This document shows positions 26,311 through 58,208 of a DNA stretch of 64,000 nucleotides, piece after piece. The position numbers and the translations under genes are program-made. Each line of letters starts with the position of its first letter. The stretch's first letter is position 1. This DNA is from Welwitschia mirabilis (lineage: Eukaryota): the NCBI GenBank assembly GCA_051453625.1, contig JBOZIK010000001.1, forward strand, positions 45,846,160 to 45,910,159, given 5' to 3'. Under the pieces are notes generated by a model, which was given only the letters and a program-made list of their open reading frames with translations, ran no database searches and was not told the DNA's origin.

Positions 26311-26880
26311 ATGAAATCAATGAAACATTATTTAGTTCCTTTCATTTTAAAAAAAGCTTTCCTTTTCGCTTTCAATGTTCTTATTAATAATAGGAATAAT
26401 CTTATGAAAATATCATTTTGTGATTTGATTATGAATTTGAACATTATTAATATTATGAAATTACTAGGAGAGATTAATAAAGTTAATTTTATTAATATAA
26501 TTCATGGTCCTAAATCTTATCCTCATGAACAAAGTGTTTCTCTTCATTTATCTTTGAAATATGATTTAAATTTTAATTATCAAAATAACCCTACTACTAC
26601 GTTGGATTTATCCTTTAAAGAATTTTTGGAAAACCATAAAAAAGCCATAGGTTGGAAAACATATAATTTTGAACATCTAGATCCTAAAGTTTACATTTCT
26701 CATGTTTTATCTAAATTTTTGAACTCATGTGTGGATCTACTTATATTTTCTCTCCCATTCCATGATTTGACCCACATTCTCATAACATGTTTTAGTCTTT
26801 TCCCTTACATTCCATTGAAAAACATCCTTATAGTCAACCCTTAGATTAGTCGATTCAATTCAAAACAAATAGAATATTAC
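26311..26880 (+). pseudogene. Highly decayed L1 ORF2 endonuclease region (left flank of the tandem Athila insertion)
   Basis: ORF 26311 shows APE-like motif order (ISFCD~GDFN, KEFLE..IGWK~F..DLGF, SCVD~SRID). It appears to continue past the TSD at 48598. Confidence 0.35.
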
Positions 26881-27776
26881 TAATGATGACTAATTTTGAT
26901 GTAAATTTTACTTATTAATAAAATGTTTTTGTTTTTATAATTATACATTTTAGATAATATTAGATGTTTTTCTTTAAAAATTAAGTTAATATACTCACTA
27001 ATCAATAGGTTAGTTAGTTAGTATATTAGTAGGTTAGTACATATATATTTTATGTTATTGAGTTATAGGTACAAAATAATCTTTGGTATAAGGATGTAAG
27101 AGAAGGCTAAGGTGGTAGAAAAATAGTAGCAACCTAAACTATAAACCTATCCCTAAGGAGAAAAGAAAGGAAATAATAAAATAGAAAGAGGTATAAGGAA
27201 GAGCTCACCATTAAAAGGAGGATATTTTTTGTAGATATCTCTAGTAATAGGACTAATAAAAAGCCATCCTACAAAGGGTACAATAGCATCTCTAATGCTC
27301 CAAGTATTGCCTGCAAAGGAAAACACAAGCTTATTAGTACATCTTTGTGTAAAATTTTGATATTTTAATACAAATATGAAAAACTAAAATTTTATGTATC
27401 ATTTTTTGCATGTTTTATTACTTGAAAAAGTAATAATATCTCTGTTTCTCATGTTTATGTAGTTGAACATAAATCAAGATAATTAACAATTCTTAGAAAT
27501 AAGTATTATTCAACATTTTATTTATCATGTTTTTCTACTTTATTTATTTCTCCATAGTTAGATATAGGTAAATAGCAGACTTTATCATTAAATAAACAAA
27601 CCTAAATAGTTCAAGTAACTTCATCATGATATTATTGTGATGATGCATCTTAAACTAAATGGTTAAATCTCAACTAGGTTTTTAGTAAGTCTTTTGTTTA
27701 ATAGTTTATGATTATTTTAGATTAATAATATCATAGTTTCTACATTTTTCTAGCATAACTATATAAGCTTTTATCA
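26881..27776 (+). repeat. LTR 1 of family C tandem
   Basis: TAATGATGAC (decayed TGATGATGAC)...TTATCA, aligning end to end with 39471-40420. Confidence 0.9.
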
Positions 27777-27779
27777 CTT

Positions 27780-27795
27780 TAGTGCTAAAAGGAGG
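27780..27795 (+). other. PBS (tRNA-Asn type)
   Basis: TAGTGCTAAAAGGAGG versus TGGCGCTAGAAGGAGG (complement of the plant tRNA-Asn 3' end); only transition differences. Confidence 0.7.
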
Positions 27796-27859
27796 TCTAT
27801 CTTAAAGCCAACTAGAATAGATAAAGAAAATTATAATCCAATAAGATAGCCAAGGAAAA

Positions 27860-30800
27860 TGACAAGATGAAAAAGGTAGGTGTGTTAAAGACCCTAAAAA
27901 AATATGATCTGGATGAGTAGACTAGAAATAGAATTAAAATCAAAATAGAAGAAGAAGATTTTATGATGGATGAAATCACTCTTTAAAATATTGTGAAAGA
28001 ATAAATATTCCTATGAATTCATATATGAATTATAATAGTGATTGCTTATTATTCATAAACCATCCCTTGTTTAAGAAGAATCTTCATAAGTAACTCAGAA
28101 AAATAAACCTAAAAAGAAATTTGTAATAAGATGCTATTAAGAAGATGATGAATACTTGAAACCTTAAATCATGATACCCATTGGCTATAAGACTTAAGTA
28201 CCATTAATCCTACAATCCTAGAACACTCAAAAAAAGTGAGAAATATAAATATAATGTCAATACCTAGTTTTGGGTGCCAGAATTAGAATAACCCCTACTA
28301 CATTTGAGTTTTTTTGATACCCTCTATAAGTAAATTATCTTGATTTGTAATTTGATTATTTGAGGTATTTCACTTTTTCTTGGCTTAATTTCAACCCATG
28401 ATGATGGTTGACGATTTAAGAGAATAAATTTTAGATAATAAACAAAAATATAATGAAATATTTGATGAATTCATGGATAAATGTATCTCATTTTTAGCTA
28501 AATGTTCTAACCATGGAATTATAGCTAGAGAATGAGTCAGAGATTTACTTAGAGAATTACAAAGTTAAGATTTAAAGGAACAAGGCTTATTATGTAGAAG
28601 CATCAAAACAAAGGATGTTTAAAAAGTAACAAAATTTATTAATTAGTTTTATAACATGAGTTAAGAATGAGATAAGAAAATAAAAATAAGAAAAGTGTAA
28701 ATGAAGAATTTACCCCTAATGAAGATGGTAGTGTATACAATTCAAAACATATTAGTCTTATGGAGGACATAGTTAAAAAAGTGACTAATAGTATGGTAGA
28801 AAAATTTGTTCAGTTAGCTATACAACACTTTAAAGAGAAAAAAGAACTTACATGTAAAGATTGTGAAGAAGATAATCATGAAGGAATAGAATATCCTTGG
28901 ATATGAGAATTTTTTCATTAGTTGGATATTAATAGATTAGTTTTAAATATAGGAAATCAACTTCAAACTAGGAAAAAACCATATCCTTACCAAAGTAGAA
29001 AATAAGAAGGTAAGTTTGAAAGGATTTTACAAAAATGTGTAAATTCAAAAAGACAAAAAAAATATGATTCTAATAGAAATTAGAGAAACAGAGATTCAAA
29101 AAACATGAAATAAAACTCAAAAGTAGACAAGAAAGAAGGGAAAATTCCTACTCAAGCCTAATCAAATCCAAGAAAAGTAATAAGTAAAGATATAACTACT
29201 AGATGTAAAAAATAGATGATGACACATGAATCATAGGAAAATAATCCAAATTTTAATAGTTCTGTAGATGATGAAGAAAAAGATATAGAAAAGAAAGTAG
29301 TAGATGATGCATCAACATATCCTCTATATTTTCCAATAAGAAGCAAACAAATAGAACATCTAAAAATTCAAAAATACATAGAACATTTAATAAAAGTTTT
29401 AGAAGACATAAAAATATCATTATCTATTTTGAAATTACTAAAATACATGCCTATGTCCTAGAAGTAAATGAAGAGCATGTGTTTAAAAAAAAATAATAAA
29501 AATGAAAGCAAGAAATAAAAATAAAAATTAAGATGGTTAGGAAAGATTAAGTTTCTTGAGCTTCCAACAAGTTCTTTAAAATAAATCACATGAAAAGTAT
29601 AGTAATCATAGAACACCTATAATAGATTAAAAATTGATGGCAAACTCAAAGTGAAAGAACTTGTGGATTTAGGAGTAAGCATTAATGTTATATCCTATGA
29701 AACTTATGAGGAACTAAGAAATCCAAAATCGATACCTTACCAAGGAAAAGTATACCTGGTATATGGATCAATAGTAATACTAGAAGGAGTTCTAAAGGAC
29801 ATACCCATCGAACTCTATAGCTTTATCTACTTGACAGATTTCTTAGTGATGAAAACTCAAGCAAATACCCATGCAATAATTTTAGGAAGACCTTCAATGT
29901 CTATGATAGATGGTACTATTTATTCCAAGAGAGGAGTAATAAAAATTAGTCTAGAAGATCTTGAGAAAGGGATTAAGTTATCTAATGTAGCAGTTGTAAA
30001 AGAGATGGTACAGAATATAAAAGCTAGAACTAATGCAATTATGATACAAGAGGTTAGTCTAATGTTAAATAAGAAAAATGAACAAAAGTATGAAGAGGAA
30101 AATTTAACATCTCAAGAAATGGAAAAGCCTCCACTTAAGAAAGGATTAAAATATATTGAAGTATCTCAAAATAGACCTCTGATTATAAATAGCTATTTAA
30201 CTCATTCATAGAAAAGAAAACTTAGAAAATTATTAATCAAAAGAAAGGAGATTTTACTTGGAATCATACTAATATAAAATAAATATATCTAAAACTATGT
30301 CAACATAGAATTTCTTTAGATACTTCTATCAAATCAAATAGGTAATCAAAAAGAAGATGCAACCCATACATGCAAGAAATAATTAAGCAAGAAATTTTTG
30401 AACTCTTGGATGTTAGATTCATCTATCCTAAATCTGATTCAAAATGGATTAGTCTTATTATAGTGGTATCAATAAAAGAAAATAAATGGTTAGTATGTAT
30501 AGATTTTTAAATGTTAAATACTGCAACTTATAAAGATCACTTTCCTATTTCATTTATAAATCAAGTTTTGAAAAGAGCATTTGGACATCAGTACTATAGT
30601 ATTTTGGATGAATATAGTGGATATAATCAGGTCCTAATATATTTCTAGGATCAAGGCAATACTGCTTTTACATGTCATTGGGGTACTTATGCTTGTAAAG
30701 TATTACCATTTGGATTATGTAATGCCCTTGTACTTTTTAAAGGTTATTAAATAGAATTTTTTAGAATATGATAGAAAGACCTATTGAAGTATTAATGGAT

Positions 30801-32950
30801 GATTTTTCAACTTTTGAAAATGATTTTGATAAGTTACTAAATAGATTAAAAAGTGTGTTAGAGAGATGTAAGGAAAAATGTCTAAAACTTAGCTGGTTAA
30901 AAAGTCATCTTATAATGAAAGAAGGCATAGTGCTAGTATCACAAAAAGAAATTGAGACTAATGAATAAAAATTTAAATTCATAAATACATTTTACAAATG
31001 ACCAAATTAAAAGAATTAAGATCTTTCTTAGGGCACATTGGATATTAAAAAAGATTTATATCTAACTTTAGTAAAACTACTAAGGCTTTGAGTAATTTTT
31101 TATAGAAGGATGTGGAATATAATCAGACTGAGAAGTGTTAAAGTAGTTATTAAACTTTAAGAAATGAACTTTTATCAACACCTATTTTATAAGGGTCAAA
31201 TTAGATAAGACCATTTTACATTATAATCAATGCATCTAGTCATTTTATGAAAGTAATTTTAGGGCAAAAAGATAAAGACAACAAAACATTTCCTATTCCT
31301 TACATTAGTAAGAGCTTCAAAACAACTTAGTAAAATTACATAGTAATAGAGAAAGAGTTCTTAGTAGTAGTGGTGGAATTAGAAAAATTTAGGTATTATA
31401 TTTTATCTTACAAAGTAAAATTTCATTCGTACCATAGTGCTATTAGATTTTTACTAAATAAAAAAGAGGTAAATTTGAGAATTATGGGATGGATACTATT
31501 GATGGAAGAATTTGACTTAAAGATTATTGATAAAAGAGGAACAAAAAATGTGATAGCAAGTCACCTCTCAAGACTAGAATTTTTTGATAAAGAGTAGATA
31601 AACATAAGAGATGCATTTCTAGATGAACATAATTTTCAAGTAAAGACCAATCCATGATATGCTAATATATCCAATTTTATTGTGATAAAAAAATACTACT
31701 TTCTATGAATTATTATGAAAAAAAAAGATTATTAAGAGAATTTCGAGGCTATATATGACATGATAAGATTTCATTTAGAAGACGTAAAGATCATGTTATT
31801 TGAAGATGTGTAGAAGAGAATTTACAAAATGAGATTCTAAAGGAATCTCATGAGGGAAAAGGAGGAGGACATTACAGTATAAGAAGAATAGGGATAAAAT
31901 CCTTCATGTGGAATACTACTAGTCCATAATATTTAAAGATTTAAATGTTTATGTCCAGAGTTGTGATAAGAGTTAAAGAGAAGAAGCATTTAACCAAAAA
32001 ATAGAAATGCCACAGTGATGAATTTAGTTAATTAAATATTTTGATGTTTATAGAAGAGATTTTATTAAACTTATTAATCCTTCCTCTTATGAAAAAAGAT
32101 ATATTTTGGTCTATGTTGATTACTTCACTAAGTGGATCGAGGATGAGGTTGTGTCTTATTATTCTTTCCAAACCATAATTAATGATTTTCTTAGGGATAT
32201 TATCTATTGGTTTAGAGCCCCTAAAAGCCTTATATCTAATAGGGGAACCCATTTTACTAGTGAAATATTTAAGAAAGCCTTGACCAAATAAGGAATCTAC
32301 CACATACTCTTTATTGTCTATCATCCTTAATCTAATGACTAAGCTAAAGTGACTAATAGAGAAATTAATAAAATATTAATAAAAATCATAAATATTAAGA
32401 AAACAAATTAGGCTGACAATTTAAATAAATCTTTGTGGGCTTATAGAAAAACTTGAAAACATAGCACAAGGTTTACATTACATGAGTTAATCTATGCAAA
32501 AAAAAGCTATCTTGCTAATTGAATTTAGAATAAAAACATTGAAATTGGCTAAAGAATTAAAATGTAATTTGGATCTAGCTCAAAAGGAATGGATAGAAAA
32601 CATGAATATTTTAGATGAAAACAGAAAACAAGCTCTTTCACTTAAAGAACTCATACAATAAAGAACTAAAATATATTATGATCATAAAATTAGAAAAATA
32701 AATTTTAATATAGGAAATTCTATATTAATCTATAATCCTAAAAAGATCCATTTCAAACAAAAAATATGAACCAATTTGGCAAAAACCCTATACCATAACA
32801 AAAATTTTGGGAAATGGAGTCATAGAGCTATATTATCTTGATAAAAAAGTAACCTACCAAGTTAATAGATAGAGATTAAGAATGTATCATGATTATAAAA
32901 CTATGATACATTATTTAGGGAACTCTTATAGGGTGGAAATAATAATTCCA
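27860..32950 (+). pseudogene. gag-pol pseudogene (GAG-PR-RT-RNaseH-INT, Ty3/gypsy order), copy 1
   Basis: PR ELVDLGVSINVI (~29657); RT KDHFP, VLPFGLCNA, VLMDDF (~30790); RNase H WILLMEEFDLKIIDKRGTKNVIASHLSR; INT HEGKGGGH, VDYFTKWIE, SLISNRGTHF. Many stops and frameshifts. Confidence 0.95.
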
Positions 32951-33208
32951 CTATACTTATGAAATAGAAGTTTTTAATATAGATAATAAAATATGTATTA
33001 TTACCTTAAAGCTTATTTAAACTATCCATTTACTAAGTTGTTCAAGATAAATTTAATGATTGTGAAATAGCATATAACTTAATAAGTCTTTTATAGGGGA
33101 TTGAGTATTATTCATATTAATAAGATTAAGAAGACACATCCCATCACATGGTAGAATACTTTTTTGATGAATGTATAAAAAAATAAAAAATAAAAATAAA
33201 AAACAAAC

Positions 33209-33385
33209 AATGCTCTACTGCAAGTGTGCTAGGGTAAATATTCCTGAGAGGAGCCTTTGATAGTGCAATATATTAGCTATGAGAACTTGACTAAGGGGTA
33301 AATTGAACATGATCTAAATAAAAAGAAAAATAGCTTATGAGTCTTTACTCCTCTAACAGTGGTTGCACTCTCCTCATTGTGGTTA
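33209..33385 (+). ncRNA. Putative structured cis-RNA motif in the retroelement 3' region (also at 108-262 and 45887-46082)
   Basis: Conserved across families A and C, with paired segments AGAGGAG/CTCCTCT, CTACTG/CAGTGG and AGTGCAA/TTGCACT. Confidence 0.45.
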
Positions 33386-33980
33386 GAAAATCAAGCTGTA
33401 AAAAATAAAAAGTTAAGAACAATTATATCCTAGGAGTTATCTGAGACATAACAAGTTACCAATGGTACAATAATATATTAAAACTTAAAAAAAAGAGAGA
33501 AAAATAGTTGTATATGTGATGAAATGTGAATCCAAATATTTTCAATTTAATAGCATGCATAATTATTAAATTCTATTTTAGCAAAGAGAAAGCTTCAAGT
33601 TTTAAAATCATTTCACATTATCTTGATAGGTTCATAAGAAAATAAAAGTAGTAATAAGATAAATTTATTTGCAATAAAATAGTTAAAAACTTTATTAAGC
33701 CAAAAGTTTATTATATCATGTTGCAAAAATAAGATAAAAATATAGTTTACTCTACTAAGAGCTAAAATGATAAACCATTTAACTAAAGCAAATCAATTTT
33801 CAAAGTGGCTAGAAAACTTATTTTTCCTTTTAGAATGCCTATTCTTAGGTGATAATCCCATAGAACTCTTACCTAGGGGTACTAGATGCATCTCACTTAA
33901 AAATACTGATAGCATGTTGATCTCTTTTGGGTGGACTTACTAAAATTTTAGGTAATTATTAGCATTTTATATTATTTTCT

Positions 33981-34462
33981 CTATGTTTTTTCAATCAAAA
34001 CTTAATGTAGCAAGACTAAGTACATGGTTTATACCTTATGATAATTAACCCTTTTTTCTAACACTTGCATTTATCCATCTAACTGGCCTAAGGAAACATC
34101 ATAAGTTGAATTACCTTGATTGAGTTGTTAAGAAATCTTTTTAATTCTTACCCTCAGGTACTTCCCACTAAGTGATGAATCATAAGATCAAAACTTGTAG
34201 GGATAACATTATTTTTAAAATGGGCTTTGCTAGACTTTGTAATAAACATATCCAAGGTATCTAAAACCTCAATAGTTGACTTTTAATCATAATACAAGAA
34301 CTTTTAAACCTCATTCTATGACTTAACTGAAATATAAGGTAATTGGAGGTTTACACTCCTAATACACATGTCCATCTAAGTGGAAATAAACTTAAAAAAG
34401 AAAGGTTTTACCTTTCTAACACATGTGACAATAATGGAAGAATGAGAAGGAGTGAAATCCAT
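33981..34462 (-). pseudogene. Antisense accessory ORF (~160 aa), copy 1, function unknown
   Basis: MDFTPSHS...MDMCIRSV...EVLD...MIHHL...QLNQGNSTYDV...KT*, colinear with 46723-47205. Confidence 0.6.
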
Positions 34463-34516
34463 AACAATTAACTAAGAAAGATGGTAAAGATTGAAAAATG
34501 ATTAAATGAAAGAAAT

Positions 34517-34900
34517 CTAAGGATGAGATGGAGAATGATGAATGATTAAGAAATTTATATCACAAGTCTTTTTTAGTATGATAAGTGTAATCCATTTTAA
34601 GTTACCCAGTGCACATGTGTTTAGTAATGAAGTAAAAGAAGTTTAAGAAACTACATACCTCTTTTATCCAACAACGAGGTATGCCAAGTGGTAGAAATGA
34701 AGCAAGATAGTAATGAGGGAATTCCAAACTAACTAAGGTTTAATCTAAAGTCAGAACTTCATATTAATTTATAATCAATTTAATTTTTTTTTTGAGCTAT
34801 AAGCCTTTGTAAGAAGCCATCAAATTTTATCATCATTTTCAGTTGCAATTGGTTAGTAAAATTTTGTAATTCACTTCTTAAAGAAATATATTTAGATAAT
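34517..34900 (-). pseudogene. Second candidate antisense ORF, copy 1
   Basis: NDDKI*W...FRLNL...YVVS..FTSLLNTCALGNLKWITL...IIHHSPSHP*, matching 47261-47660. Contains frameshifts. Confidence 0.35.
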
Positions 34901-35029
34901 ACTATGCAAACAATAATTAATAGTATAGAGGAAAAAAAATATATTTTAAGAAAGAATAAGAAATGAAAGTTACTTATGTCATTCCTGTGATTAAACATTA
35001 TCATGAGATAGGCCTTCGAAATATGTTTA

Positions 35030-35450
35030 TCCAATTAAAAAACATCAACTCAAACTTAAAACCTAGATTCAGATTTTAAGCCAACTTGATAAACATAGAG
35101 ATCTATTTTTTTCACCTCTATATCTACATAAAGCAACATCACTTGATCGAACGACACTAGCTTAAAGCTAAAACTTTGAGTTAGATTGTAGACTAAGCCA
35201 TTGTGATGTATGTTCAAAACATTAGCTGTAGTTCAAAGATAAAAGTTTGAGTTAGATGTTATGCTAACTTAATTATCTTCTTATATTCTATAAACTTGTG
35301 ATAAAACCAAATCATTTAGTTAACTGATACTAACTTGAAGTCAAAAGTTTAAGTCAAATTTTAAGCTAATCTATTAAGATATAAGTTCAAGAAGTTTACT
35401 GACACCAGTCTAAAGCTAATGCTTTGAGATAGATTTTAAGTCAACTTCAT
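35030..35450. repeat. Five-copy palindromic repeat array, copy 1
   Basis: Units like GACACTAGCTTAAAGCTAAAACTTTGAGTTAGATTTT with alternating long and short spacers. Confidence 0.75.
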
Positions 35451-36299
35451 CCTCTTAAACTTATTTATGAAGTTTGGAATCTTCTTCTTGATGACCTCCA
35501 TCAACTTACAACTATAAATCCTTTACATGACCTTACTTTTCTATTAATACTTGCTTAATTATAATCAAGTGTCAAGAATTCAAAGGACCCTATCAATAAA
35601 TCTTGAGTTTTCAATGACCATCTTTGAACCCCTTTTGTCAGCTCCATAATGAATTTGATGACTCTTGTTAAGAACTCGAGAGTTCTTAATGACCCTTGTC
35701 AAACCCTACTATTACAGAGAGTGATCATCATTTAAATATGATATTTTATTTCTCAAGCATTTTACTTAAAATTTTTCTCAATAACCCCTCCTCATTCTTG
35801 ATGACCCCGATCACAAAGTAATAAATATCTTTCTTCCATGTTATCAAACCCATGTTAGACCCTATAATGTCTATTTCATATTAGTAAATTTTTGCATCAT
35901 TCTTCTTACCACCATTTCATTCCATTTTCTAGCATCAGCCACATATGCAACAATTTCATTTCTAACTATTTTGTTTTTAGTAAAAATTATCATTGACTCC
36001 TTAAATTATGGATTTAATATAATACTAAGAATGATTTTTTATCTATTTTAAGCAAGAGACAAGTGAGTAATTCTACATTTACCTTTTCATTTTTACTTTG
36101 TCATACTTTCATGCTTTTTTGTGCTCTTTTGTATTTAAGTTCTTGAATTATGATAGAACTTCTTATGCAAAAATCTTAGGTACAACTAATATCTTATTTT
36201 TAGCATTAAAAATAATGTCAAACATGAGCAGAGAATAAATTTGAATAGAGTAGAGTAGAATACAATTTTTCCAAAAATTTTTGTAGTAGTAAAAGTGTA

Positions 36300-39200
36300 T
36301 TTTCAAATTTATGAAAATGACTCTGTGGAAATTTCTTTTATATTCTTTTTATAAAAAAATTACTTAGTAAGTTATTTTTCAAATGTTATTAGCTAAGAAG
36401 CATTTATTCAAAATACTTTTTCAATAACCTAACTTTAATAATTAAAAAAAATTAATAGAATACAAGATTATCTCTTCATTAAATTTTACACAGTGCTTTC
36501 AGATCCCTACTTAATAGAGTCTAAAAACAAAATCATTAAGATGGGCTACTACGAATTGCTTACAATGAATGACAGATTCACCTTGGATTTTGTTTATGAG
36601 TTTTATAAGAATTTGAGAATAAATGATGAAAAAGATATGCTAGAAACAATAGTTAAAAATAAAAAAATAGTAATTACTCAAGAAAATATCAGAGAAATGT
36701 TGCACTTGCCACTCAAAAGAGAACTTATTTATACACTAGCAGAAAAGAAGATACAAATTTAAGCATGAGTTATTTACGAAGGGTGGCAGTGTAAGAAAGA
36801 ATCTTAGTAGAAAAAGATATAAAAGGATAATTTTTCATTATTTTAAGAATTATGGCTAGTAATTTAATTCCTATCCTTCATAAACAAAAAGGTATTACAT
36901 TACTTAACCTATACATAATAGCAATAGTGAAGGATGAAATTAATCAAACAAATGTAAATATTATAGTAGGGATGTTTTTAAGTTTAACAAGACATATTAC
37001 AAAATTAAATAAAGTTGGAATTAGAGCTTCTAATATAGTAGGATTAGGATTTCCTTCTTTAATTACTCCAATATTAAGTAAAAATAAAGTTCCATTTCAA
37101 ATAAGTAAGTTTTGTGTTGATTTAACTCTTTAGATTTGGTCAAAGTTAAGGATTTAAGTCTCCTAGGAACCATAGGACATAATATCACTCAGCCAGACTT
37201 GGGAGAATCCTCTTTTTCTTCCCAGAGTCTACCTTCATTACTACCCTACTTAATCATGTCTCAAAACCCAACTTAATTCTCAATTAAAGAGATCCTACCC
37301 TTCCATCTGCTTTAGTTAGATTAGTTCTCTAAAGCACTAGAAGAAGATAAGATTAAGAATCTTTACAATACTTTAAATTTAGTTAGAGATGAAATTCAAA
37401 CTTTCTCCATAGAAAAGAGGAGATTTTAGCATTACAAATCTAAGTTTGTGATTTAAGAATTGACAATGAATTATTAAAGTAAAATTAGATAAAGAAAGAG
37501 AAAAATAATGAAAAGTTATGATAAGAAATCACCAAAATTAAATAAATTATTCAGATATATAAAGCTTTTAAGAATATCTGTAGGAAATTATAAAGAGATT
37601 ATGAACATAGTACTAAACTAAAGACTACTACCAAAGACAAGGTAAAAGTAGAAAACTGCCAAACATGTTAGTATCCTTATTACAGAATTTGGATTCAAGC
37701 AAGAAATATGATGTTAAATACATTGAGCATTAATAAAAATTCATTACATTCATGAATAATGAAGATCCTCTACCCTTGATCAAGGAATATTCAGATAAAA
37801 TCTATGTAAACTTATAAGGAATGAATGAAAAACTCATTAAGATTCATGCAAAGGATTAAGAATATAGATATAAATGAATTGAAGCTTAGAATTATTTGGG
37901 GTGCTATCAATCCCTTTTGGGAGGAAATAAGAGAGCCATGGACTAGTTGATGAAAGAAAATAAGTCTTTCAAGAATTAAATGGGAGAAGCAAGTTCTTTT
38001 GATTAACCTCTTCAAGATCCTAGAATAAAACATCTACAAAAACTGAAAGAGCAGTGAATTTAATTTAAGACATTCCTTTGAATTCTTCAACTCTAACTAG
38101 TAAGATTGAAAATAAAATAAAGTTAAGTATTATAAATGCTTTGAAGGAATATCTTGCAGAGTTGAAGAAGGATATGAAAATAATATGCCTAAATATATCC
38201 AACTTATTATTCAAAATTTAGAAAAAAATAATATGAGATTACTACATAAGCTTTGCATGATGAAATTAGACAAGATAATCAAGTTTAGGCATCAAGAATT
38301 GATCATTTCATGTAGCCTTGATTATTATCCCTAAAAATTTTATTATTTCATTGATAGATTTAAATAACATTTAGAAAGTATTATTCAGAAAACTTCTAGG
38401 GAATTAACAAAGTTAAGCAAAAGTTTTAACAATTATAAAAGAGATGTCAAATCATTGATCCATCTACATTCTCTCATCTTATGTAGAAACATTATCCAAC
38501 TACAGATTGAGTTGGGGGCTCCATGTAGATGTAAAGTGAGAGATAGTGGTCACTAGACACCAGATGTTGGGATTGTTGATCACCAGCAGTGCCAGTATCC
38601 TCACCATTTCGTTTACTAGATCCATCAAACAGCGTCATGTATATATAGATATAGAGCCAAAAAGCAATTGTATAAGGTTTGTCAACACTATAGAAGAGCC
38701 TAGTTAGTGCAGAATTACCCAATCACAACTAATCAGTGGTTGTTCAATGTGATTACATGATCAGGATTTCACCAATATCAAGCATAAATTAAAATTGTAT
38801 AAAAATGAGCTAAAGTATCTATTTGGGAATTCAAAATCTTCTTGAATAACATAGTAATAAAATTTTGTTAGATATTTGAAGAATATGAGTTGGATATGAA
38901 AGTTCTTATAGTGTCCTCTCGAGATTTTTAATAGTTGTGTTCTTTTTGAGATAAAATTATGTAGAACATGACTATGCTGAGAGATACTTTTATGTACATT
39001 TTCTTGAAATTAGAAAAGAAAGATTCTTCAGAGATGTACATAGTTTCCATAGGACAAACTTCAAGAATGGAACTACAAGCTAAGGCAGCTCTAGAGCCAA
39101 AACGTGCATCTCAAAGTCCTACTAGATCAAACATTCCTTCAACTCCTAAAAGAAGAAGAGAAGAGCCACAACAACCAAGGGCTCTTTCATGAGCCAAAAG

Positions 39201-39393
39201 TAAGGGAAGAAAGGCAGATACTCTAGAGTAGACAGACATACAGATCATAGACTTAAGTGATCTTACTTTGTAGGAGGATTAAAGAAAAATTTTGGTTTCC
39301 TTAGAATAAAAAAAACAATGGCCAAGGCATAGGTAGAATTACAGTCTAGTGAGAAGTACCCTTTTGTTTTTAAAAGGGGAATGAAAAAAATGA
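36300..39393 (+). pseudogene. Large additional sense ORF (Athila ORF2/env-like position) with N-terminal plant-transposon-protein-like domain
   Basis: ORF 36493 TLDFVYEFYKNL...KIVITQENIREMLHLP resembles the LVREFYANL domain of Athila ORF2. The charged helical frame continues with TAA/TAG stops to ...IDLSDL...YPFVFKR. Homologue at 51600-54223. Confidence 0.65.
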
Positions 39394-39439
39394 TGAGCCT
39401 CTTTTTCTCTCTCTACTTTGGTATATATTTGTTTATTAA

Positions 39440-39470
39440 GGGACTAAAAAAACCTCAAACTTAGAGGAAC
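39440..39470 (+). other. PPT region preceding LTR 2
   Basis: GGGACTAAAAAAACCTCAAACTTAGAGGAAC immediately precedes TGATGATGAC; the same motif is at ~54238-54267. Confidence 0.6.
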
Positions 39471-40420
39471 TGATGATGACTAATTTTAATGTGAATTTTA
39501 CTTATTAATGAAATGTTTTTGTTTTTATAATTATACTTTTTAGATAGTAATAGATATAATTCTTTAGAAATTAAGTTAATATACTTCCTAATCAATAGGT
39601 TAGTTAGCTAGTATGTTAGTAGGTTAGTATATATATTTTATGTTATTGAGTTATAGGTACAAATGTCGTTTAGTATTAGGATGAAAGAGAAAGATGAGGT
39701 AATAGAAAAGCAGTAACAACCTTAACTATAAACCTATTCCTAAGGAGCAAATGAAGGAAATGACAAAACAGAAAGGGATATAAGGAATAGATCACCATGA
39801 AAAGGAGGAATATTTTTGCAAATTTCTTTAGCAATGGAACTCAGCAAAAAGGTCAAGAGGGAAGCTATAACTATCCTAAAAAGGGTGCAAAACCATCTCT
39901 AATTCTCCAAGTATTGCTTACAAAGGAAAACACAATCTCATTAGTACATATTTATGTAAAATTTTGGTATTTCAATACAAGACTAAAAATATAACATTTT
40001 GGGTATTATTTTATACATTTTTAATTACTTGATAAAGTAATACTATTACCATTTTCTCCTATTTATGCAGCTGAACATAAATAAGAATAACTAACAATGC
40101 TTAGAAATAAGTATTGCTTAGCATCTTATCTATCATGTTTTTTATAACTTTATTTATTTTCTCATAGTATAATATATGTAAATATTAAACTTTATCATCA
40201 AATAAAATTACTTAATTAGTTCAAGTAACTTCATCATAATATTATCATGATGATGCATTTTGAACTAAACAGTTAAATCTCAACTAGATCTTTGGGAAAT
40301 CTTTGATTTTTATTTAATGATTTAAGCTTAGTTTAGGTTAATAACATCATCGTTTTCTACATTTTCTACCATAACTTTATAGTATTTTCTGCATTCAGTT
40401 TACCATATAAGCTTCCATCA
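39471..40420 (+). repeat. LTR 2 (shared middle LTR) of family C tandem
   Basis: TGATGA...CCATCA, with a PPT on the left and a PBS on the right. Confidence 0.9.
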
Positions 40421-40423
40421 TTT

Positions 40424-40439
40424 TGGTGCTAGAGGAAGG
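40424..40439 (+). other. PBS (tRNA-Asn type)
   Basis: TGGTGCTAGAGGAAGG versus TGGCGCTAGAAGGAGG. Confidence 0.7.
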
Positions 40440-40499
40440 CCTATCCTAAAGCCACTAGTGGAGATAAAGAAAACCATGATCCAATGAGATAGCCAAGGA

Positions 40500-43400
40500 A
40501 AATGGTAAGATGAAAAAGGTAGGTATGTTAAAGACCCTAAAAGATATGATCTGGATAAGCAGACTAGAAGTAGGATTAAAATAGAAATAGAAGAGGAAGA
40601 TCTTATGATGGATGAAACCACTCTTAGAAAGACTGTGAGAGAACAAATCTTTCTTGAATTAATGAATGAATTTGAGCAACAATTACTTACTCTTCTTAAA
40701 CCACCTTTCATTCAAGGAGAATCTTCCCAAATAACTCAAGTAAATAAACCTAAAAAGAAGTTTTTACTAGGATGATATTAGGAAGATGATGAAGATTTAA
40801 GACCTTTAAATTATGATATCCATTAGCTAGAATACTTAAGTGCCATTAATTCTATAGCCTTAGAACACCTAAACAAAGTGAGAAATATAAATATCATGTC
40901 AATATCCACTTTTAAGGGCTAGAAATCAAAAGAACCCTTAGTGCATTTAAGTTTGTTTGATGCCTTCTGTAAAGCAAATCATCTTGATCCATAATCTGAT
41001 TATCTAAGGTATTTTCCTTTTTCTTTAAAAGTGAATGCTCAGTTATGATATTATAAAAACTTGAATTATGCCTTTAGTTTATGGGTAACTCTCAAGGATG
41101 CTTTCTTAGCTAAATTTCAACCCATAAGAATGGTTAAAGATTTAAAAGAACAATTTTTGAATATTAAATAGAAAGATAATAAGAGATTTGATGAATTTAT
41201 GGATAAGTATATTATATTATTAGATAAATGTCCTAACCATGGAATTGCAGCTAGAGAATGAGCTAGAGCTTTACTTAGAGGATTAAAGAGTCAAACTTTA
41301 AAGATAAAACTTACTGTCTATAGGAAGCATCAAAGCAAAGAATGTTCAAGAAGTTGGAGAAGCTATTACTCAATTTTATAATATGAGTCAAGGATGGGGA
41401 CAAGAAAGTGAAAAAAGAATAGAGTAAATGAAGTATTTATGCCAGAATTAGATGGTAGTGTGTATAGTTTAAAACATATTAGTCTTATTAAAGAAGTAGC
41501 TAAAAAAGTGATCAATAATATTGTAGAAAATTTGATTGGTTAGTGTACAACACTTTAAAGAGGAAGAAGGACCTACATGTGAACATTGTGAAGAAGATGA
41601 TCATGAAGGAATAGAATGTCCTTGGATACAGGAATTTGTTCATTGGTTGGATATTAGTAGATTAGATTTAAATATAGAAAATCAATCTCAAACCAGGAAA
41701 AAACCATATCCTTATCAAAGAGGAAATGAAAAGGTAGGTTTAAAAGGCCTTTACAAAAATATGTAAATTCAAAAAGGCAAGAATAATATGATTATTATAG
41801 GAATTGAAAAAATAAAGATTCAAAAGACATGAAAGAAAAATCAAAAGTAGAGAACAAAGAAGGGAAATTTCCTGCTTAAGCTCAACCAAATCCAAGAGAA
41901 GTAAGTAGTAGAGCAATGACTACTAGATGTGGGAAACAAATGGTGATACATGAACCCCAAAAAAAGAAAATAAATTTGAACAGTTTTTCAAATGATAAAA
42001 ACAAAAATTATAAGGAAGAAAATAGTAGATAATGCATCAACAAATCCTCTATCTTTTTCAATGAGAAGTAAACAAATAAAACATTCAAAAATTGAAAAAG
42101 ACATAGAATATTTAACAAAATTTTTAGAAGATATAACAATATCATTATCTCTTTTAAAATTACTAAAAGGCATACCTATGTATTGGAAGCAAATGAAGAG
42201 CATGTGTTTAAAACAAAGGAGTAAAAAGAAAAGCAAAAAGTAAAAACAAATTGAAATGATTAGGAAAGATACAAGTTTATTAGACTTCCATACAAGTTCT
42301 TTAAAATAAATAATATGAAAACTATAGTGATCCATGAACACCTATGATAGATGTAAAAATTGATGGAAAACTCAAAGTAGAAGCACTTGTGGATCTAGTA
42401 GCAAGCATTAATGTGATGGCCTATGAAACTTACAAGGAATTGGAAAAGCCAAAGTTAATATTTTACTAAAGAAAGGTGTACTTGACAGATGGTTCAGCAG
42501 TGACACCAAAAAGAGTTCTAAAGGATATATCCATCAAACTCTAGGGCTTTATCTACCTGATAGATTCTTTAGTAATGAAGACTCAGGGAGATATCCATGC
42601 AGTAATTGTGAAAAAATCTTGGATGGCTACTGAAAATGCTACTCTTTATTCTAGGAGATGGGTAATAGAAATCAGTCTAGAAGATATTAAGAAAGAGATT
42701 AAGTTATCTAATGTAATGGCTATAGAAGAGTAACACAAAATACAAAAGCTATAACCAATGCAATTATGATACAAGAGGTTAGTATAATGTTAAATAAGCA
42801 AAATGAATAAAAGCATGAAGAGGAAAATTTGACATCTTAAGAGATAGAAAAGCCCTCACTTAAGGAAGGATCTAAATACATCAAAGTAGCTCTAAATAGA
42901 CCCCTAATTATAAATAGTTGTTTAACTCATTCTCAAGAAAGAAAACTTAAAAGAATGTTGATTAAAAAAAGGCAACTTTTGCTTGGAATTATACTGATAT
43001 TAAAGGAATAGATCCATAAATATGTCAACATAGAATTTATTTAGATACCTCTATCAAATCAAACAGGCAACCAAAAAGAATATGCAACCATACATGCGAG
43101 AAATAATTAAATAAGAAATTTCTAGACTCTTGGATGTTGGATTATTTATCCTATATACGATTTCAAATGAATTAGTCCTATCATAATTGTGCCAAAGAAA
43201 GGAAATGAATAGAAAGCATGTATAGATTTTTGAATGTTGAATACTGTAACTTCTAAAGATCACTTTCCTCTTTCATTTATTGATCAAGTTTTAGAAAGAG
43301 TATTTGGACATCAGTACTACAGTTTTTTGGATGGATATAGTGTATGTAATCAGGTCCTAATAGCTTTAGAATATTATGCTAAGACAACTTTCACTTGTAA

Positions 43401-48443: not shown

Positions 48444-48597
48444 TAAACAGTTAAATCTCAACTACTTTTTAGTAAGCCTTTGATTTTTATTTAATGATTT
48501 AAGCTTATCTTAGATTAATAGTATCATAGTTTATACACTTTTTTATCATATTTTCTTAATTTTTTTAATATTTATTTCATCATATAAGCTTTCATCA
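48444..48597 (+). repeat. 3' end of LTR 3 of family C tandem
   Basis: Aligns with 40267-40420, ends TTCATCA, followed by ATTAC rather than a PBS. Confidence 0.85.
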
Positions 48598-49700: not shown

Positions 49701-51599
49701 CACCTTGCATTTCTTTTCCTTTGAAAAAAAATGACACGTAATGAAGAATTTTCCATGTAATGTTGTATCAACTTGTTCTCAAATTTTGCATTTAATTTTT
49801 TCTATCTTTTCAAACTTTAAGGATAAGTTTATCTTTGGTTAAGGAATATGGAATTCACATTTTTAACTTAATGCCTTATTTTTCCAAAAATTGACCAAAT
49901 TTTTCAAGTTCATTACTCTAATACTTGAATGTTTTCAAACATTTTCAATATTAATCACTATTTTTCACATGTTTTGCTAAGGGACTAGTAAAATTTTGGT
50001 TTAGGATATGGTAACATGTAAATATTTACATTTATCTCAAGTATATTAGACCAATTTATCATAATTGAAGATATCAATTTAATTATTTTATCATAAAAAT
50101 ATGTCTTCTATATTTTTTTATGTCATATGTGAATTTTTGCTTTTATCCATATGTTCTTAGATTTTTATTCATGTTTTGAAAAACATATCTAAAAATGCAT
50201 TTACTCTATACCAAACAAAGATTATGCTAGAGACATGTGATAGTGACACCAATTAAAGGAATACTGCTCCAAAGACCACATGTTGAACTCTTCATAACAA
50301 TCCCTAGTAAACACTAGAAAGATAAATATGTCAATTACTCCATTAATCATTCTAAGAGAAATATTCCAACCACTTCACCATGTTAGAAGATGAAGATTAT
50401 AGCTACTCCACTAAATACTACAAGATGAAATATCCAGTACCTTATCTAATATAAAGGACAACAAACCCAAATGATCTCAATCCGATTATTAATTAGAAAA
50501 AGGGTTAAGTTATTCAATTTATAAATTATTACTTGAAGACAATGCTTATCCTTAAAGCAAAGGATCCTTTTAAGATGTTGTGCTAAGTTCCTCCTTTAGG
50601 ATTGGGCTAGCCTTAAGGCTATCTTAATGCTTTTATAAATAAGCTTTAGATTTATTTCATTGAAATACTACAATTCTATTTCCTAATACTAAATGATAGT
50701 ATCTTTTCTTTCTTGATTTTAAGTTGTGAGTTACTTCATACTTTTAATACTTGATTTAAGCTATACTATTATTGAGTTATTGATACAAGAGTATTTCTTA
50801 TTTATATTTTGACTTCATAGTTTGAATTTGCTTGATAGGATCTATGTTTTGTTTCCTATTTATCATGATTATGATCAGGTAATAGATCAAAGTGACAAAG
50901 ATATTTCACCACTATTCATGTGGTGAATAAGATTATGTCATCACATTATAAGTTATAATGAACTTGGTGTTTTTAAGATTTACACTAGGAATTTTCATTA
51001 TATATTTAAATATATTTTTTAATTAAAATAATAAAGCTTATGCTTTGAGTGTTAAGCCTATTTCCATATTGATGCATATTAAAATATCTTTAATCACTTT
51101 CTTTATTTGCTTTGTTTCTATTTACAATTTTGTATGATGTTAATTTCACTATTTTTCTATCAACATCATACCTATGAGAGAATGACTCTAGAATCCTTTT
51201 TACAATAGAAGCCTTTGATAATATTGGTAAAAATTTAACTTGATTGTGTATGACTTGTATTAATTAGGTTGATCTTGCATTTCTTTAATAAATCTATAAA
51301 CACAAGCGTAGATGAGTTGTACCTTGAATAACTACTAGTTTGAGAATTTTCCAATTCTACCTACATTGAAAATTAAATATCATTCATATCTTAAGGGAAA
51401 AATATCAAATGCTTATCTATTTTTAGTTTATTTTCTTAAGAAAAATTTTTATAATAAAATGTAAATTTGCAAATACTCTAGTCTATAGAATTCTTTCTAA
51501 TAAAAAGAAAGCATTACCAAGTAATATTTAAAATATGACTATTTTTTAAATTTTGATTGATGAAAAATTTCATATTTTCAATCCTATATTGTGTAATGA

Positions 51600-54223
51600 A
51601 TAATATTATGAGGGGATTCATTTATCAAAATTTAGAGTCATATTATCATTAGATTTTGGAAAGGTTCTTGTAGACCTCTATCTTATAAATTTTAAATATT
51701 GAGTAACAAAATTAGGATGACCTCAATCACTAAATCTGTACAAGAGGTGTAATTTGGAGATAATTTTTAAATTTTGTAGGAGTTTACAATAAACAAAGGA
51801 AGAAGAACTATTAGAAATAATGGTGATAACATGAAAGTATTAGTTTCTCAAGAATATATCAACAAAATACTAGGTCTATCAAGTGAGGAAACATCTATAG
51901 AATAAACAAGTAAAAGAAATGATACCAAACATGGCATCAAGTTATTATGTATAGTGATAATGAAAGAAAGGATCCCAATTGAAAAAAATTATAATTATAA
52001 ATATGTTTTATTTTGAAAATAGTAATCAATAATTTGATGATAATATTAAATAAATAGAAAGAATTAACATTGCAAAAACTCTACATGTTTAAATCCATTA
52101 AAAAAATAGCAAAATGAAAGAATATAAATAGTGCTAAAGGAATTTTTGGGGGCTTATGAGATAAGTTACTAAAATGAGAAAGGTAGGAGCTAGGAAATTG
52201 TAAGTTTAGGATATTCCTCAATAATTATGAGAATTATAAATGATAAGGGAGTGGACATAAGAGTGAATAAATCCCATGTAAAATTAATAGTTCAATCCTT
52301 ATTTAGAGTCAAATAATTAAGAGTTATTAAATCTAAATCAAAAGGGAATTCTGAGAAAGAGGAACGTAGCAGTTCATATACTCCAACCAATATAGAAACA
52401 AAGACATCTAAAATGGAAGAACTTAGTACAATCCATTTTTCTATATAGCAATTATTAAAGATGTATTTTCAAATAAGCTCATTTTTCAAAGACTTGCAAA
52501 ATAATAAAATTAATAGCATTACCATTTCTATAAATTCATTCACGAAAGAAATGTAGACCTCCATCAAATGGAGGAAGGAATCTTCTATTTTGCAGAGTTA
52601 GAATTCATTGTTATATATAAGAAATAAATCTTTAAGGAAATAACTAGATCATGGAATTGAAATACAAGATTGAGAGAAAGATAATAGAAATTTACTATTT
52701 AAAAATTTATAAAGGGGTTAAGAAAAATTACAAGTGGCATATGGTTGAATACCAAAATTAGAAAAAAAAATTATGGAAGAAAATAATAACCTTAACTATA
52801 GGTTAAGAAATAAACTAAAATTATTGGTCACATTATCGTAGAGCATGGTAAGTTGTAAAACATATAACCCAAATTACATCAAACAATAATAAACTTTTAT
52901 TATATTTATTCATAGTGAGAAATACCTTCCTTTGTACAAAATAATTTTCAAATAAACATTATGTTCATCTCTAATGAATCAATGAGAAATTTATGAATAT
53001 ACAAGCAAATGAAATAATTATAAACAAAATTAGATAGAGTTATTACCTTTAAATGATACTTACCAAATATTTTTAAAAGAAAACAAGGATCGTATCTAGG
53101 AAGTCATAAATCAAGATAAAGAGTTAGGCTAAAATTTATAGTAATTAGATTATTAAGATGCTAATATTTACTCAGAAAGTGAATCATACATCTTTGGGAT
53201 GCATCTTATCAAATATTAAAGAAGAAATAAAAAATTTTATAAAAATCATGAAGGAACAACAAGGGAATGTCCTCCTAAAGATGATCATTTTGAATTAACT
53301 CTTAATAATATTTTTCGAAAATGATATAAAAATTAGAATAGCATCACAACATGAAAAATTAATAATTAGGAATAATGATAGAGTAATCATTTTATCATAC
53401 AATGAATGTTATTAGGATGATCTATGTAGAATTGATCTAAACCAACATTCAAAATTTAGAAAAGAAAAATATGTGATTATTACATGAAAATCACATAATG
53501 GAAGCTCAATTGAGCAAAAGAGTAGTATTTAAATATGAGGAACTAAGGATCCACATTAGTTTATAATATTATTCATATAAATTATATGATTTTATTAATA
53601 TATTTCAGAATGAATTACAAACTATGATATAAAAAACTTTAAAGGATAGGTTAAAAGTCAATTAACGTTTTGAAGCTTATGATGAAAATTGTAAATATTG
53701 AAAAACAAATTTGATAGAGATAAAAGGGCTTATCTACTACAGAAGTAGAAAACTTCATTGATTCCATAGCTACTTAATTTAATAAAGCTATAAAAGAGTG
53801 TATAGTGTATTTTAACTTATTTGGAATAAACTCCTCAGGATTTCCAATAACTTTGCATACTCTATGACATAATCATAACTCATGATAAGGAATGCTTTTG
53901 TTGAAAATTTTGAAAAATTTAAAACAAGTAACTTTACAAGAATCTTTATAATACCAATTAGTCAAGCCTTAAATGAAAATAGTACAAGTCAAATATCCAT
54001 CTAAGAGTAGAGGTGGGAACAAGTTAAAAAGATTCAAGAAGATCCAAATTTAGAAGAAACTAAGTCAATAGATCTAAATGATCCTATCTTTTAAGAATAG
54101 CAAAGAAAATTTATGAATACCATTAAATAAGAAAACTAATTAGACTAGTATTCCAAGCTAATAGTAGTAGAAGAAGATCTTAAGGAGAAACCTTTTATAT
54201 TTAAAAGAAGAACCAAGAAATGA
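51600..54223 (+). pseudogene. Additional sense ORF of a related Athila-like family (homologue of 36300-39393)
   Basis: KVLVDLYL...LEIIFKFCRSL...KVLVSQEYINKILGL versus VLSDPYL...LDFVYEFYKNL...KIVITQENIREMLHL; C-terminus IDLNDP...EKPFIFKRRTKK*. Confidence 0.6.
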
Positions 54224-58148: not shown

Positions 58149-58208
58149 ACCATAAATTCTTATATCCCTACTCTCTTATAACTTCTTATAATAATCTTGG
58201 AATTTTAA

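What the first reader, a model, noticed from the sequence alone, without database searches (positions are those of the whole stretch)
32950..39470. Multi-component accessory module in an Athila-like retrotransposon: structured RNA, antisense ORFs, palindromic array, large sense ORF
Seen: between the integrase end and the PPT, ~6.5 kb is ordered as conserved paired RNA motif (33209-33385), antisense ORF(s) (33981-34462, 34517-34900), five-unit palindromic array (35030-35450), then a ~3-kb sense ORF (36300-39393). Copy 2 repeats the order up to the gap (45887-48216). The array lies between two divergently oriented ORF sets. Established: Athila/Tat elements carry extra 3' ORFs, mostly of unknown function, and VANDAL DNA transposons pair an anti-silencing protein (VANC) with tandem target motifs. 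Inference: this could be an undescribed retroelement protein-plus-repeat regulatory system, such as a bidirectional promoter or sequence-specific anti-silencing.
Basis: partly seen in the sequence, partly recalled or inferred. Interest (0 to 1): 0.75.

Follow-up and report, generated by a model that had tools for sequence, protein, structure and literature searches.

The report
Decayed Athila-type retrotransposon accessory region
The stretch is the long tail of an old, dead plant Athila-type retrotransposon, holding a broken env-like gene, a small repeat array and a conserved non-coding block, all of kinds already described for such elements.

Summary
The region is the pol-to-3'LTR part of a Ty3/gypsy element of the Athila clade. 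The element sits in an LTR-internal-LTR-internal-LTR dimer (26881-48597) flanked by a 5-bp target duplication. Both copies are dead: about 80% alike, full of stops, CpG almost gone.

Of the four claimed components:
- **Repeat array:** real. Five units with a palindromic core, with the same spacing in both copies.
- **Sense ORF:** a broken remnant, longest open run 106 codons. It carries a split Transposase_32 (PF20167) match, the domain reported for the Athila 3' ORF of sunflower. A third decayed copy lies at 51490-54220.
- **Antisense ORFs:** not there. The longest run is 84 codons, which is chance level, with no family match.
- **"Paired RNA motif":** folds no better than shuffles and has no Rfam match. 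It is nevertheless the most widely conserved piece of the tail.

No RNA read matched the locus at 95% or more in two runs. Extra ORFs, long non-coding tails and tandem arrays are published features of these elements. Verdict: an ordinary new member of a known kind.

The parts
26881..27776 (+). LTR1 of the dimer. The 5-bp target duplication ATTAC lies at 26876-26880.
   Evidence: Self-BLAST and alignments. LTR1 against LTR2 is 82.2% identical, K2P 0.205.
28380..33000 (+). Broken gag-pol. Gag-like stretch from about 28380; protease 29627-29890; RVT_1 30526-30941; RT_RNaseH 31127-31513; rve 32058-32327. Integrase C-terminal remnants run to about 32950.
   Evidence: Translations and Pfam with stops read as X. 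The gag assignment is by eye only; Pfam gave no gag hit.
33170..33208 (+). A-rich tract just after pol. It is purine-rich (G/A) in the third copy at window 60-107.
33209..33385 (+). Copy 2 has it at 45887-46081; a distant third copy lies at window 78-273.
   Evidence: - Summed contig depth is 33064 in bin 33136-33419, against 404-915 for 33704-35407.
- Three-way alignment.
- Translated scores are alike in all frames reported, 42.7-59.3 bits in 5 frames.
- Fold z-score +0.24.
- No Rfam match.
33400..35034 (.). Family-specific spacer. The claimed antisense ORFs are not open here.
   Evidence: Contig depth is low.
35042..35444 (+). Array of five units of roughly 71-113 nt, each with a palindromic core. 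Copy 2 has the array at 47806-48206.
36442..37133 (+). Remnant of the Transposase_32 (PF20167) domain of the sense 3' ORF, split over two frames (36553-36705 and 36840-37094).
   Evidence: E 1.6e-4 for profile positions 7-58, and E 0.084 for positions 104-177. Both are under the gathering score. One search repeats the first hit.
37134..39192 (+). Rest of the sense ORF remnant. It is K/E-rich and coiled-coil-like, with a basic C-terminal end (38965-39192).
   Evidence: - Excess of long sense runs.
- The best translated match to the third copy is in a sense frame: 38194-38490, 63.5 bits, against 37.0, 36.2 and 25.8 in other frames.
- Depth peak of about 2300 at 37680-38247.
- Continuity as one ORF is inferred.
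39446..39470 (+). Weak purine-rich tract abutting the LTR (putative PPT).
   Evidence: Read. Function is inferred from position.
39471..40420 (+). LTR2, shared as the 3' LTR of copy 1 and the 5' LTR of copy 2. A TGG-starting PBS-like stretch follows from about 40424.
48444..48597 (+). Tail of LTR3 after the N gap. The target duplication ATTAC lies at 48598-48602.
51490..54220 (+). Third, more decayed copy of the sense-ORF region, from a related element.
   Evidence: 36342-38458 matches 51490-53701 at 57% over 2266 columns (E 2e-51), and 39247-39389 matches 54068-54220. No Pfam hit.

Best explanation
The stretch is the pol-to-3'LTR tail of an old, inactive Athila-clade Ty3/gypsy retrotransposon. 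The element was duplicated into an LTR-internal-LTR-internal-LTR dimer and has decayed by methylation-driven C-to-T change.

The tail holds, in order:
1. A purine/A-rich tract and a ~180-nt non-coding block conserved across related families. This is probably a cis-acting signal of replication or of expression of the 3' gene. That role is inferred.
2. About 1.6 kb of fast-evolving spacer with no gene.
3. A five-unit tandem array with hairpin-capable cores. It is of the kind that arises by slippage in the variable 3' region of these elements, and may have carried factor-binding sites upstream of the 3' gene. Both points are inferred.
4. The wreck of the sense env-like/ORF2 gene with a Transposase_32 domain. 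In living Athila elements this gene is translated from a spliced subgenomic RNA (taken from the literature).

Nothing here is active now.
For: **Shown: identity and state of the element**
- Domain order protease, RT, RNase H, integrase.
- Two internal copies 79.4% alike, with transitions in excess (1071 ts, 494 tv).
- CpG observed/expected is 0.00-0.14.
- Stops are shared by both copies even in gag-pol frames.
- LTR ends and the ATTAC duplication on both sides.

**Shown: components of the tail**
- Two collinear Transposase_32 matches.
- Sense-strand excess of long open runs, and a sense-frame advantage against a third copy.
- The array is shared with identical spacing in both copies.
- Contig depth at 80% or higher identity peaks on integrase, the post-pol block, the Transposase_32 part, 37680-38247 and the LTR ends. 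It is low over the spacer and the array.

**Shown: expression**
- 0 of 73 laid reads (X13) and 0 of 47 (X16) are 95% or more alike to the locus.

**Literature (passages read)**
- Athila 3' ORF(+) with PF20167, plus a 70-aa ORF(-): PMC11728184.
- OTA elements mostly have extra ORFs and large non-coding regions, often with tandem arrays: PMC6317226.
- Antisense ORFs and arrays in Retand tails: PMC11963269.
- Spliced subgenomic ORF2 RNA of ATHILA: PMC7197481.
Against: - Both Transposase_32 matches are below Pfam's gathering score (22 and 13.2 bits against 45).
- phmmer of the 106-aa fragment against 1.84 billion representatives found 0 proteins.
- The word-based search for longer proteins found 0.
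- The third copy gives no Pfam hit.
- Continuity of one ~3-kb ORF is not shown.
- The Athila assignment rests on not finding a second RNase H in a badly decayed pol. No tree was built and the PBS type was not determined.
- The functions given for the block and the array are inference only.
- The depth measure sums contig depths and is not a copy number.
Confidence: 0.8

Rival explanations
1. One reading: the array is a set of binding sites for a protein encoded by the element (a VANC-like sequence-specific anti-silencing system or autoregulation), or a bidirectional promoter between divergent genes.
For: - The units have a symmetric core suited to a dimeric DNA binder.
- The array lies about 1 kb upstream of the sense ORF remnant.
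- Symmetric repeated motifs cluster just upstream of env in Sireviruses and were proposed to be regulatory (PMC2829016, abstract and passages).
Against: - No antisense ORFs exist on the other side.
- All 8 pattern matches lie in the arrays and none elsewhere in the element or LTR.
- RNA depth over 34840-35407 is 0-0.16, and no start pile-ups were seen anywhere (table 6).
- The related sense-ORF copy at 51490-54220 has no array upstream.
- Array-region depth is among the lowest of the tail, so the array is not conserved across related families at 80% identity.
Confidence: 0.07
2. The element is a Retand/Tat-type element. Its tail once carried antisense Transposase_28 genes plus arrays, now decayed beyond recognition.
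For: - The tail length (~6.5 kb) is at the top of the Retand range of 2933-6566 bp.
- About half of recently active Retand clusters have arrays there (PMC11963269).
Against: - No PF04195 hit on the minus strand in 9 read-through queries at E up to 1, nor in 3 whole-region queries.
- No second RNase H was found. Only about 180 codons separate RT_RNaseH from the rve core.
- The recognisable extra domain is sense-oriented Transposase_32, an Athila trait.
- According to that paper, sense ORFs in Retand tails encode no known domain.
Confidence: 0.08
3. The post-pol block is a folded RNA element conserved for its structure.
For: - It is the most abundant piece at 80% or higher identity.
- It is shared with a distant copy in which nothing else nearby aligns.
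- An alignment fold proposes long-range GAGGAG/CTCCTC-type helices.
Against: - Fold z-score is +0.24 on the plus strand and +0.82 on the minus strand.
- Only 2 of 41 predicted pairs show a change on both sides, both in short 5' hairpins, and only three sequences were compared.
- Copy 2 breaks two pairs of the main helix.
- No Rfam family matches.
- Conservation of the primary sequence (a second plus-strand primer site, a splice signal or a binding site) explains the data equally well.
Confidence: 0.15

Closest known systems
Athila/Calypso-type Ty3/gypsy elements with a sense 3' ORF (env-like, 'ORF2'), for example sunflower 'Athila 14' with ORF(+) of 487 aa carrying Transposase_32 (PMC11728184)
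   Same: - Gypsy domain order and no second RNase H detected.
- Long tail after pol.
- Sense 3' ORF remnant with a PF20167 match.
- Basic, NLS-like stretch near the C-terminus (seen by eye).
- 5-bp target duplication.
   Different: - Here the gene is broken and the remnant region (about 2.7-3 kb) is longer than a 487-aa ORF.
- A five-unit array and a conserved block precede it. I did not see these reported in the passages I read.
- The PBS is not recognisably tRNA-Asp (recalled comparison, not tested).
Retand elements: long POL-3'LTR region with antisense Transposase_28 ORFs and tandem arrays (PMC11963269)
   Same: - Long tail of 6.5 kb.
- Tandem array inside it.
- Published speculation about regulatory accessory proteins.
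   Different: - No antisense ORF and no PF04195 here.
- No second RNase H.
- The recognisable extra gene is in sense orientation.
Sirevirus (Ty1/copia) repeated motifs: symmetric boxes in LTRs, with extra copies clustered just 5' of the env-like gene (PMC2829016)
   Same: Short symmetric repeated motifs placed upstream of an env-like 3' gene.
   Different: - A different superfamily.
- The Sirevirus boxes have a CGG-CCG core, form CpG islands and also fill the LTR.
- Here the units are AT-rich, number only five, and are absent from the LTR.
VANDAL21 VANC anti-silencing protein with its tandem target motifs
   Same: The general idea of a transposon-encoded protein paired with short repeated motifs.
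   Different: - VANDAL21 is a DNA transposon, with no homology tested or seen.
- There is no evidence here of binding, of motif spread over the element, or of demethylation.

Membership tests
Ty3/gypsy LTR retrotransposon | LTRs, target-site duplication, and pol order protease-RT-RNaseH-integrase | tested here: met
   LTRs and the ATTAC duplication. Pfam order Asp_protease_2, RVT_1, RT_RNaseH, rve.
Athila clade (criteria of PMC6317226) | Non-chromovirus: no chromodomain after integrase | tested here: met
   No chromodomain family among the Pfam hits for 31200-33031 or 32950-39470. Decay weakens this negative.
Athila clade (criteria of PMC6317226) | No additional archaeal-type RNase H (its presence defines the Tat clade) | tested here: met
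   Only RT_RNaseH and RT_RNaseH_2 were found. About 180 codons separate these from the rve core. This is a negative result on decayed sequence.
Athila clade (criteria of PMC6317226) | Placement in an RT/RH/INT phylogeny | not tested
   No reference domain set was at hand; the supplements are closed.
Athila clade | PBS complementary to tRNA-Asp (stated for Calypso and Diaspora in PMC1142308) | not tested
   A TGG-starting stretch lies 3-4 nt after the LTR. No tRNA set was available to compare it with. By recall it does not look like tRNA-Asp beyond 7 nt.
Athila 3' sense ORF with Transposase_32 (PF20167) / Athila ORF-1 (PF03078) | Match to the Pfam model above its gathering score | tested here: inconclusive
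   Two collinear partial matches, E 1.6e-4 (22 bits) and E 0.084 (13.2 bits), against a cut-off of 45. No PF03078 hit. 0 hits by phmmer.
Retand-type antisense accessory gene | [quoted passage not shown] | tested here: not met
   No open antisense ORF. No PF04195 hit.
Structured RNA family (Rfam) | Match to a covariance model, or a fold better than shuffles with covariation | tested here: not met
   0 Rfam matches at E up to 1 over 26800-48700. Fold z-score +0.24. 2 of 41 pairs with double changes among 3 sequences.
VANC-like protein-plus-motif anti-silencing system | An encoded protein that binds the repeated motif, motifs spread over the element's non-coding parts, and loss of methylation | not testable with these tools
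   Only the motif distribution could be checked: all 8 matches lie in the arrays.

The most novel reading that the evidence does not exclude
In living members of this family, the palindrome-cored units upstream of the 3' gene would be binding sites for the element's own Transposase_32-domain protein. That would make a self-recognition (autoregulatory or anti-silencing) pair in a retrotransposon.

A second, more modest novel reading concerns the ~180-nt post-pol block with its purine tract. It could be an undescribed lineage-wide cis element of Athila-type elements, such as a second plus-strand primer site or a signal for the spliced ORF2 RNA. I would give that about 0.25.
Probability: 0.07. 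Interest if true: 0.7.

Novelty: new member of a known kind. Interest (0 to 1): 0.2.

Why it matters
It matters little as it stands. It is a dead copy of an abundant repeat family, and its layout fits what is published for Ogre/Tat/Athila elements.

Two points could interest transposon specialists:
- The short non-coding block after pol is more widely kept among the genome's repeats than integrase or the LTR ends.
- A symmetric-unit array sits upstream of the env-like gene, echoing what was described for Sireviruses in the other superfamily.

Both points could be followed up properly only in intact family members.

Tried and rejected
- **Whole-genome search:** no genome is held for this window.
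- **Pfam on raw references:** I then read stops as X.
- **Whole-region read-throughs of about 2170 residues:** no hit on either strand. Shorter pieces were needed.
- **Relatives of the 106-aa fragment:** 0 by word search among longer proteins and 0 by phmmer against 1.84 billion representatives.
- **ESM Atlas:** unnamed plant clusters at 0.90-0.93, and a PF20167-bearing cluster only at 0.78. This is a lead at most.
- **Pfam on other stretches:** no hits on the third sense-ORF copy or on the stretch after the third block copy. The flanks gave only a weak RVP_2 match.
- **Rfam:** no match.
- **Earlier findings of this scan:** nothing relevant.
- **Sequencing runs:** no RNA holder was listed for the stretch.
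- **Host-element idea:** I asked whether the flanking DNA at 48609-51600 carries the pol of a host element. There was no translated match to copy 1 pol.
- **Wright and Voytas 2002:** not held, so their description of Athila4/Calypso was seen only through citing papers.
- **Supplements closed:** the tables of PBS types and eORF domains in PMC6317226 and the element maps of PMC11963269 and PMC11728184 could bear on the lineage call and on where the sunflower ORF(-) lies.
Full report
**What the window is.** The window is very AT-rich (24-30% G+C in 2-kb steps, as low as 16-19% next to N gaps) and has eleven N gaps. CpG is almost absent: observed/expected is 0.13 over the whole window and 0.00-0.14 in the parts of the element. 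A self-comparison shows that 26879-35455 is repeated at 39469-48224 at about 78% identity.

**Structure of the dimer.** Reading the ends gives:
- LTR1 at 26881-27776.
- A first internal region up to 39470.
- LTR2 at 39471-40420.
- A second internal region that breaks off at about 48224, followed by a poly-T run, a G-rich stretch and the N gap at 48344-48443.
- The last ~154 nt of a third LTR at 48444-48597.

The same five bases, ATTAC, lie directly before LTR1 and directly after LTR3. The whole is therefore one insertion that became an LTR-internal-LTR-internal-LTR dimer. The two LTRs are 82.2% alike (K2P 0.205) and the shared internal parts 79.4% alike (K2P 0.248; 1071 transitions, 494 transversions).

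Many stop codons are shared by the two copies even in the gag-pol frames. The longest shared-stop-free stretch there is 714 nt. The common ancestor of the two copies was therefore already defective.

**Which kind of element.** With stops read as X, Pfam finds the following:
- an aspartic protease at 29627-29890 (E 0.008);
- RVT_1 at 30526-30941 (E 4e-5 and 0.002, in two frames);
- RT_RNaseH at 31208-31513 (E 2e-20);
- the integrase core at 32058-32327 (E 2e-6).

No chromodomain and no second, archaeal-type RNase H were found, and only about 180 codons separate the RNase H from the integrase core. In the classification of Neumann et al. (PMC6317226, passages read), the Ogre/Tat/Athila superclade splits into Athila and Tat by the presence of that second RNase H. 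On this criterion the element is Athila-clade. The caveats are that this is a negative result on decayed sequence and that I built no tree.

**The sense ORF.** No 3-kb ORF is open.
- The longest stop-free runs on the plus strand are 106 codons (36442-36762) and 100 codons (36831-37133), in different frames.
- They match consecutive parts of one Pfam model, Transposase_32 (PF20167): profile positions 7-58 (E 1.6e-4) and 104-177 (E 0.084). Both are below the gathering score.
- In 300 dinucleotide shuffles of 36300-39393, none reached a second-longest run of 100 codons or four runs of 70 or more codons. The minus strand was unremarkable.
- A third, more decayed copy of this region lies at 51490-54220 (57% identity over 2266 columns, plus a short match at the very end).
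- Comparing translated frames, the best match is in a sense frame: 38194-38490 at 63.5 bits, against 37.0, 36.2 and 25.8 bits for other frames over the same DNA.
- Summed contig depth at 80% or higher identity is raised over 36544-37111 (1546-2890) and 37680-38247 (about 2300), relative to its neighbours.

Together this supports a former sense gene reaching at least from about 36450 to about 38490, and perhaps to 39192. That it was a single ORF is inferred.

The sunflower study PMC11728184 (passages read) reports an Athila element with a 487-aa 3' ORF(+) that partly matches Transposase_32, which it relates to Athila ORF-1 (PF03078). It also reports a 70-aa ORF(-) with one membrane helix. The domain found here is thus the expected one for this clade. 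Against this, the 106-aa fragment found no relatives by word search or by phmmer over 1.84 billion representatives, and the third copy gives no Pfam hit.

**The antisense ORFs.** They are not in the sequence.
- In 33400-35034 the longest minus-strand run is 84 codons (34780-35034), reached by 21 of 300 shuffles.
- Copy 2 has nothing longer than 59 codons on the minus strand between 46100 and 47800, and nothing open opposite the 84-codon run.
- Nine read-through queries on the minus strand gave no family, apart from a chance-level match of a hydrophobic stretch.
- This part has low contig depth (404-915).
- It is not shared with the other two related remnants in the window.

It therefore behaves as fast-evolving spacer. 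Because the common ancestor was already broken, this cannot exclude antisense genes in active relatives.

**The array.** It is real.
- Copy 1 has five units with start-to-start spacings of 112/71/102/75 nt.
- Copy 2 has five with spacings of 113/75/102/75, so the array predates the duplication.
- A degenerate 28-nt pattern taken from the units matches 8 times in the window, always inside the two arrays. The expectation is 0.03, and none of 100 shuffles reached 8. The pattern comes from the same data, so this shows restriction to the arrays rather than an independent test.
- Each unit has an inverted-repeat core. Folded as DNA, 7 of 10 units were matched by at most 18 of 300 shuffles, 2 of them by none, and 3 of 10 were not distinguishable.
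- A few DNA contigs join units differently (skips of 132, steps back of 35 and 55 nt). This fits unit-number variation among family copies, but support is thin, with 24-34 nt on the shorter side.
- The array is not accompanied by RNA: depth is 0-0.16 in its bins, and no pile-up of molecule starts was seen anywhere on the stretch.
- The related sense-ORF copy at 51490 has no array upstream.

**The 'RNA motif'.** As a fold it fails.
- The fold z-score is +0.24 on the plus strand and +0.82 on the minus strand.
- There is no Rfam match over 26800-48700.
- Two pairs of its main helix are broken without compensation in copy 2.
- An alignment fold of three copies shows double changes in only 2 of 41 pairs.

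As a conserved sequence it stands out.
- Its bin has the highest summed contig depth of the 8.5 kb laid: 33064 in X1 and 51522 in X5. Integrase bins reach 8528-11869 and the LTR ends 10302-11731 in X1.
- A distant third copy sits at window 78-273, preceded by a G/A-rich tract.
- Translated scores there are similar in the five frames reported (42.7-59.3 bits), as expected for non-coding DNA.
- The only RNA reads that pile up (13 in X13) lie here and come from other copies; none is 95% or more alike to the locus.

The depth measure is a sum over contigs and not a copy number, and a separate high-copy repeat sharing this piece would give the same picture. My reading is a conserved cis-acting sequence placed just after pol. 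It could be a second plus-strand primer site of the kind shown for EVADE, or a signal tied to the spliced ORF2 RNA known for ATHILA (both from PMC7197481, passages read). This is inference.

**Comparison with what is known.**
- Most Ogre/Tat/Athila elements have extra ORFs and large non-coding regions, which often include tandem arrays (PMC6317226).
- Retand tails of 2933-6566 bp always carry antisense ORFs, 97% of clusters with Transposase_28, and about half carry arrays (PMC11963269; abstract, results section 11 part 1 and discussion read).
- Sense 3' ORFs are reviewed as env-like genes, spliced in Bagy2 (PMC7264820, passages).
- In env-containing Sireviruses, symmetric repeated motifs cluster just upstream of env (PMC2829016, abstract and passages).
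- FIDEL of peanut is an Athila/Calypso-type element whose 3' region is scattered with stops (PMC2844528, passages).

The present tail is a further, decayed example that combines these known ingredients. I found no paper describing the post-pol block in Athila-type elements. The searches that bear on this were made, and they cover open-access text only.

**Expression.** Two RNA runs of the same species label were each read to about a quarter. They laid 73 and 47 reads at 80% or higher identity, none at 95% or higher. The locus is therefore not detectably transcribed in those samples. Other tissues or conditions are untested.

**Verdict.** It is partly wrong: there are no open ORFs, no antisense genes and no supported RNA fold. 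The interpretation as a new regulatory module is not supported by anything measurable here, although dead copies cannot exclude it for living relatives.

Noticed in passing
window 26876-48602: The element is an LTR-internal-LTR-internal-LTR dimer bounded by one 5-bp target duplication (ATTAC). LTR and internal divergences are similar (K2P 0.205 and 0.248), so the duplication followed insertion closely. Stops shared in gag-pol frames suggest the inserted copy was already defective.
   Followed up: partly
window 51490-54220: A third, more decayed copy of the sense 3'-ORF region from a related element (57% identity over 2266 columns). It gives no recognisable Pfam domain and has no array upstream.
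   Followed up: partly
window 60-273: A purine-rich tract followed by a third copy of the post-pol conserved block lies at the very start of the window. A short match to the sense-ORF region lies at 4017-4202, at about the same distance as in copy 1.
   Followed up: partly
window 48224-48343: Copy 2 breaks off just after its array. It is followed by a 23-nt poly-T run (48249-48271) and a G-rich stretch up to the N gap. This may be another insertion or an assembly join.
   Followed up: no
window 60783-63669: Two adjacent direct repeats of about 1.42 kb at 75% identity (60783-62202 and 62245-63669), not related to the element studied.
   Followed up: no
window 57970-58149: Two copies of an 89-bp tandem repeat (84% matches).
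   Followed up: no
window 26145-26325: A weak retroviral protease match (RVP_2, E 0.036) on the plus strand just upstream of the dimer. This hints that the dimer is nested in an older element. No matching pol was found downstream of the dimer.
   Followed up: partly
window 32000-40500 (runs X1, X5): Contigs of a second organism label (B) hold stretches identical to the window, for example 33705-34193 and 37372-37686 with no differences. The same old locus is therefore present under both labels.
   Followed up: no
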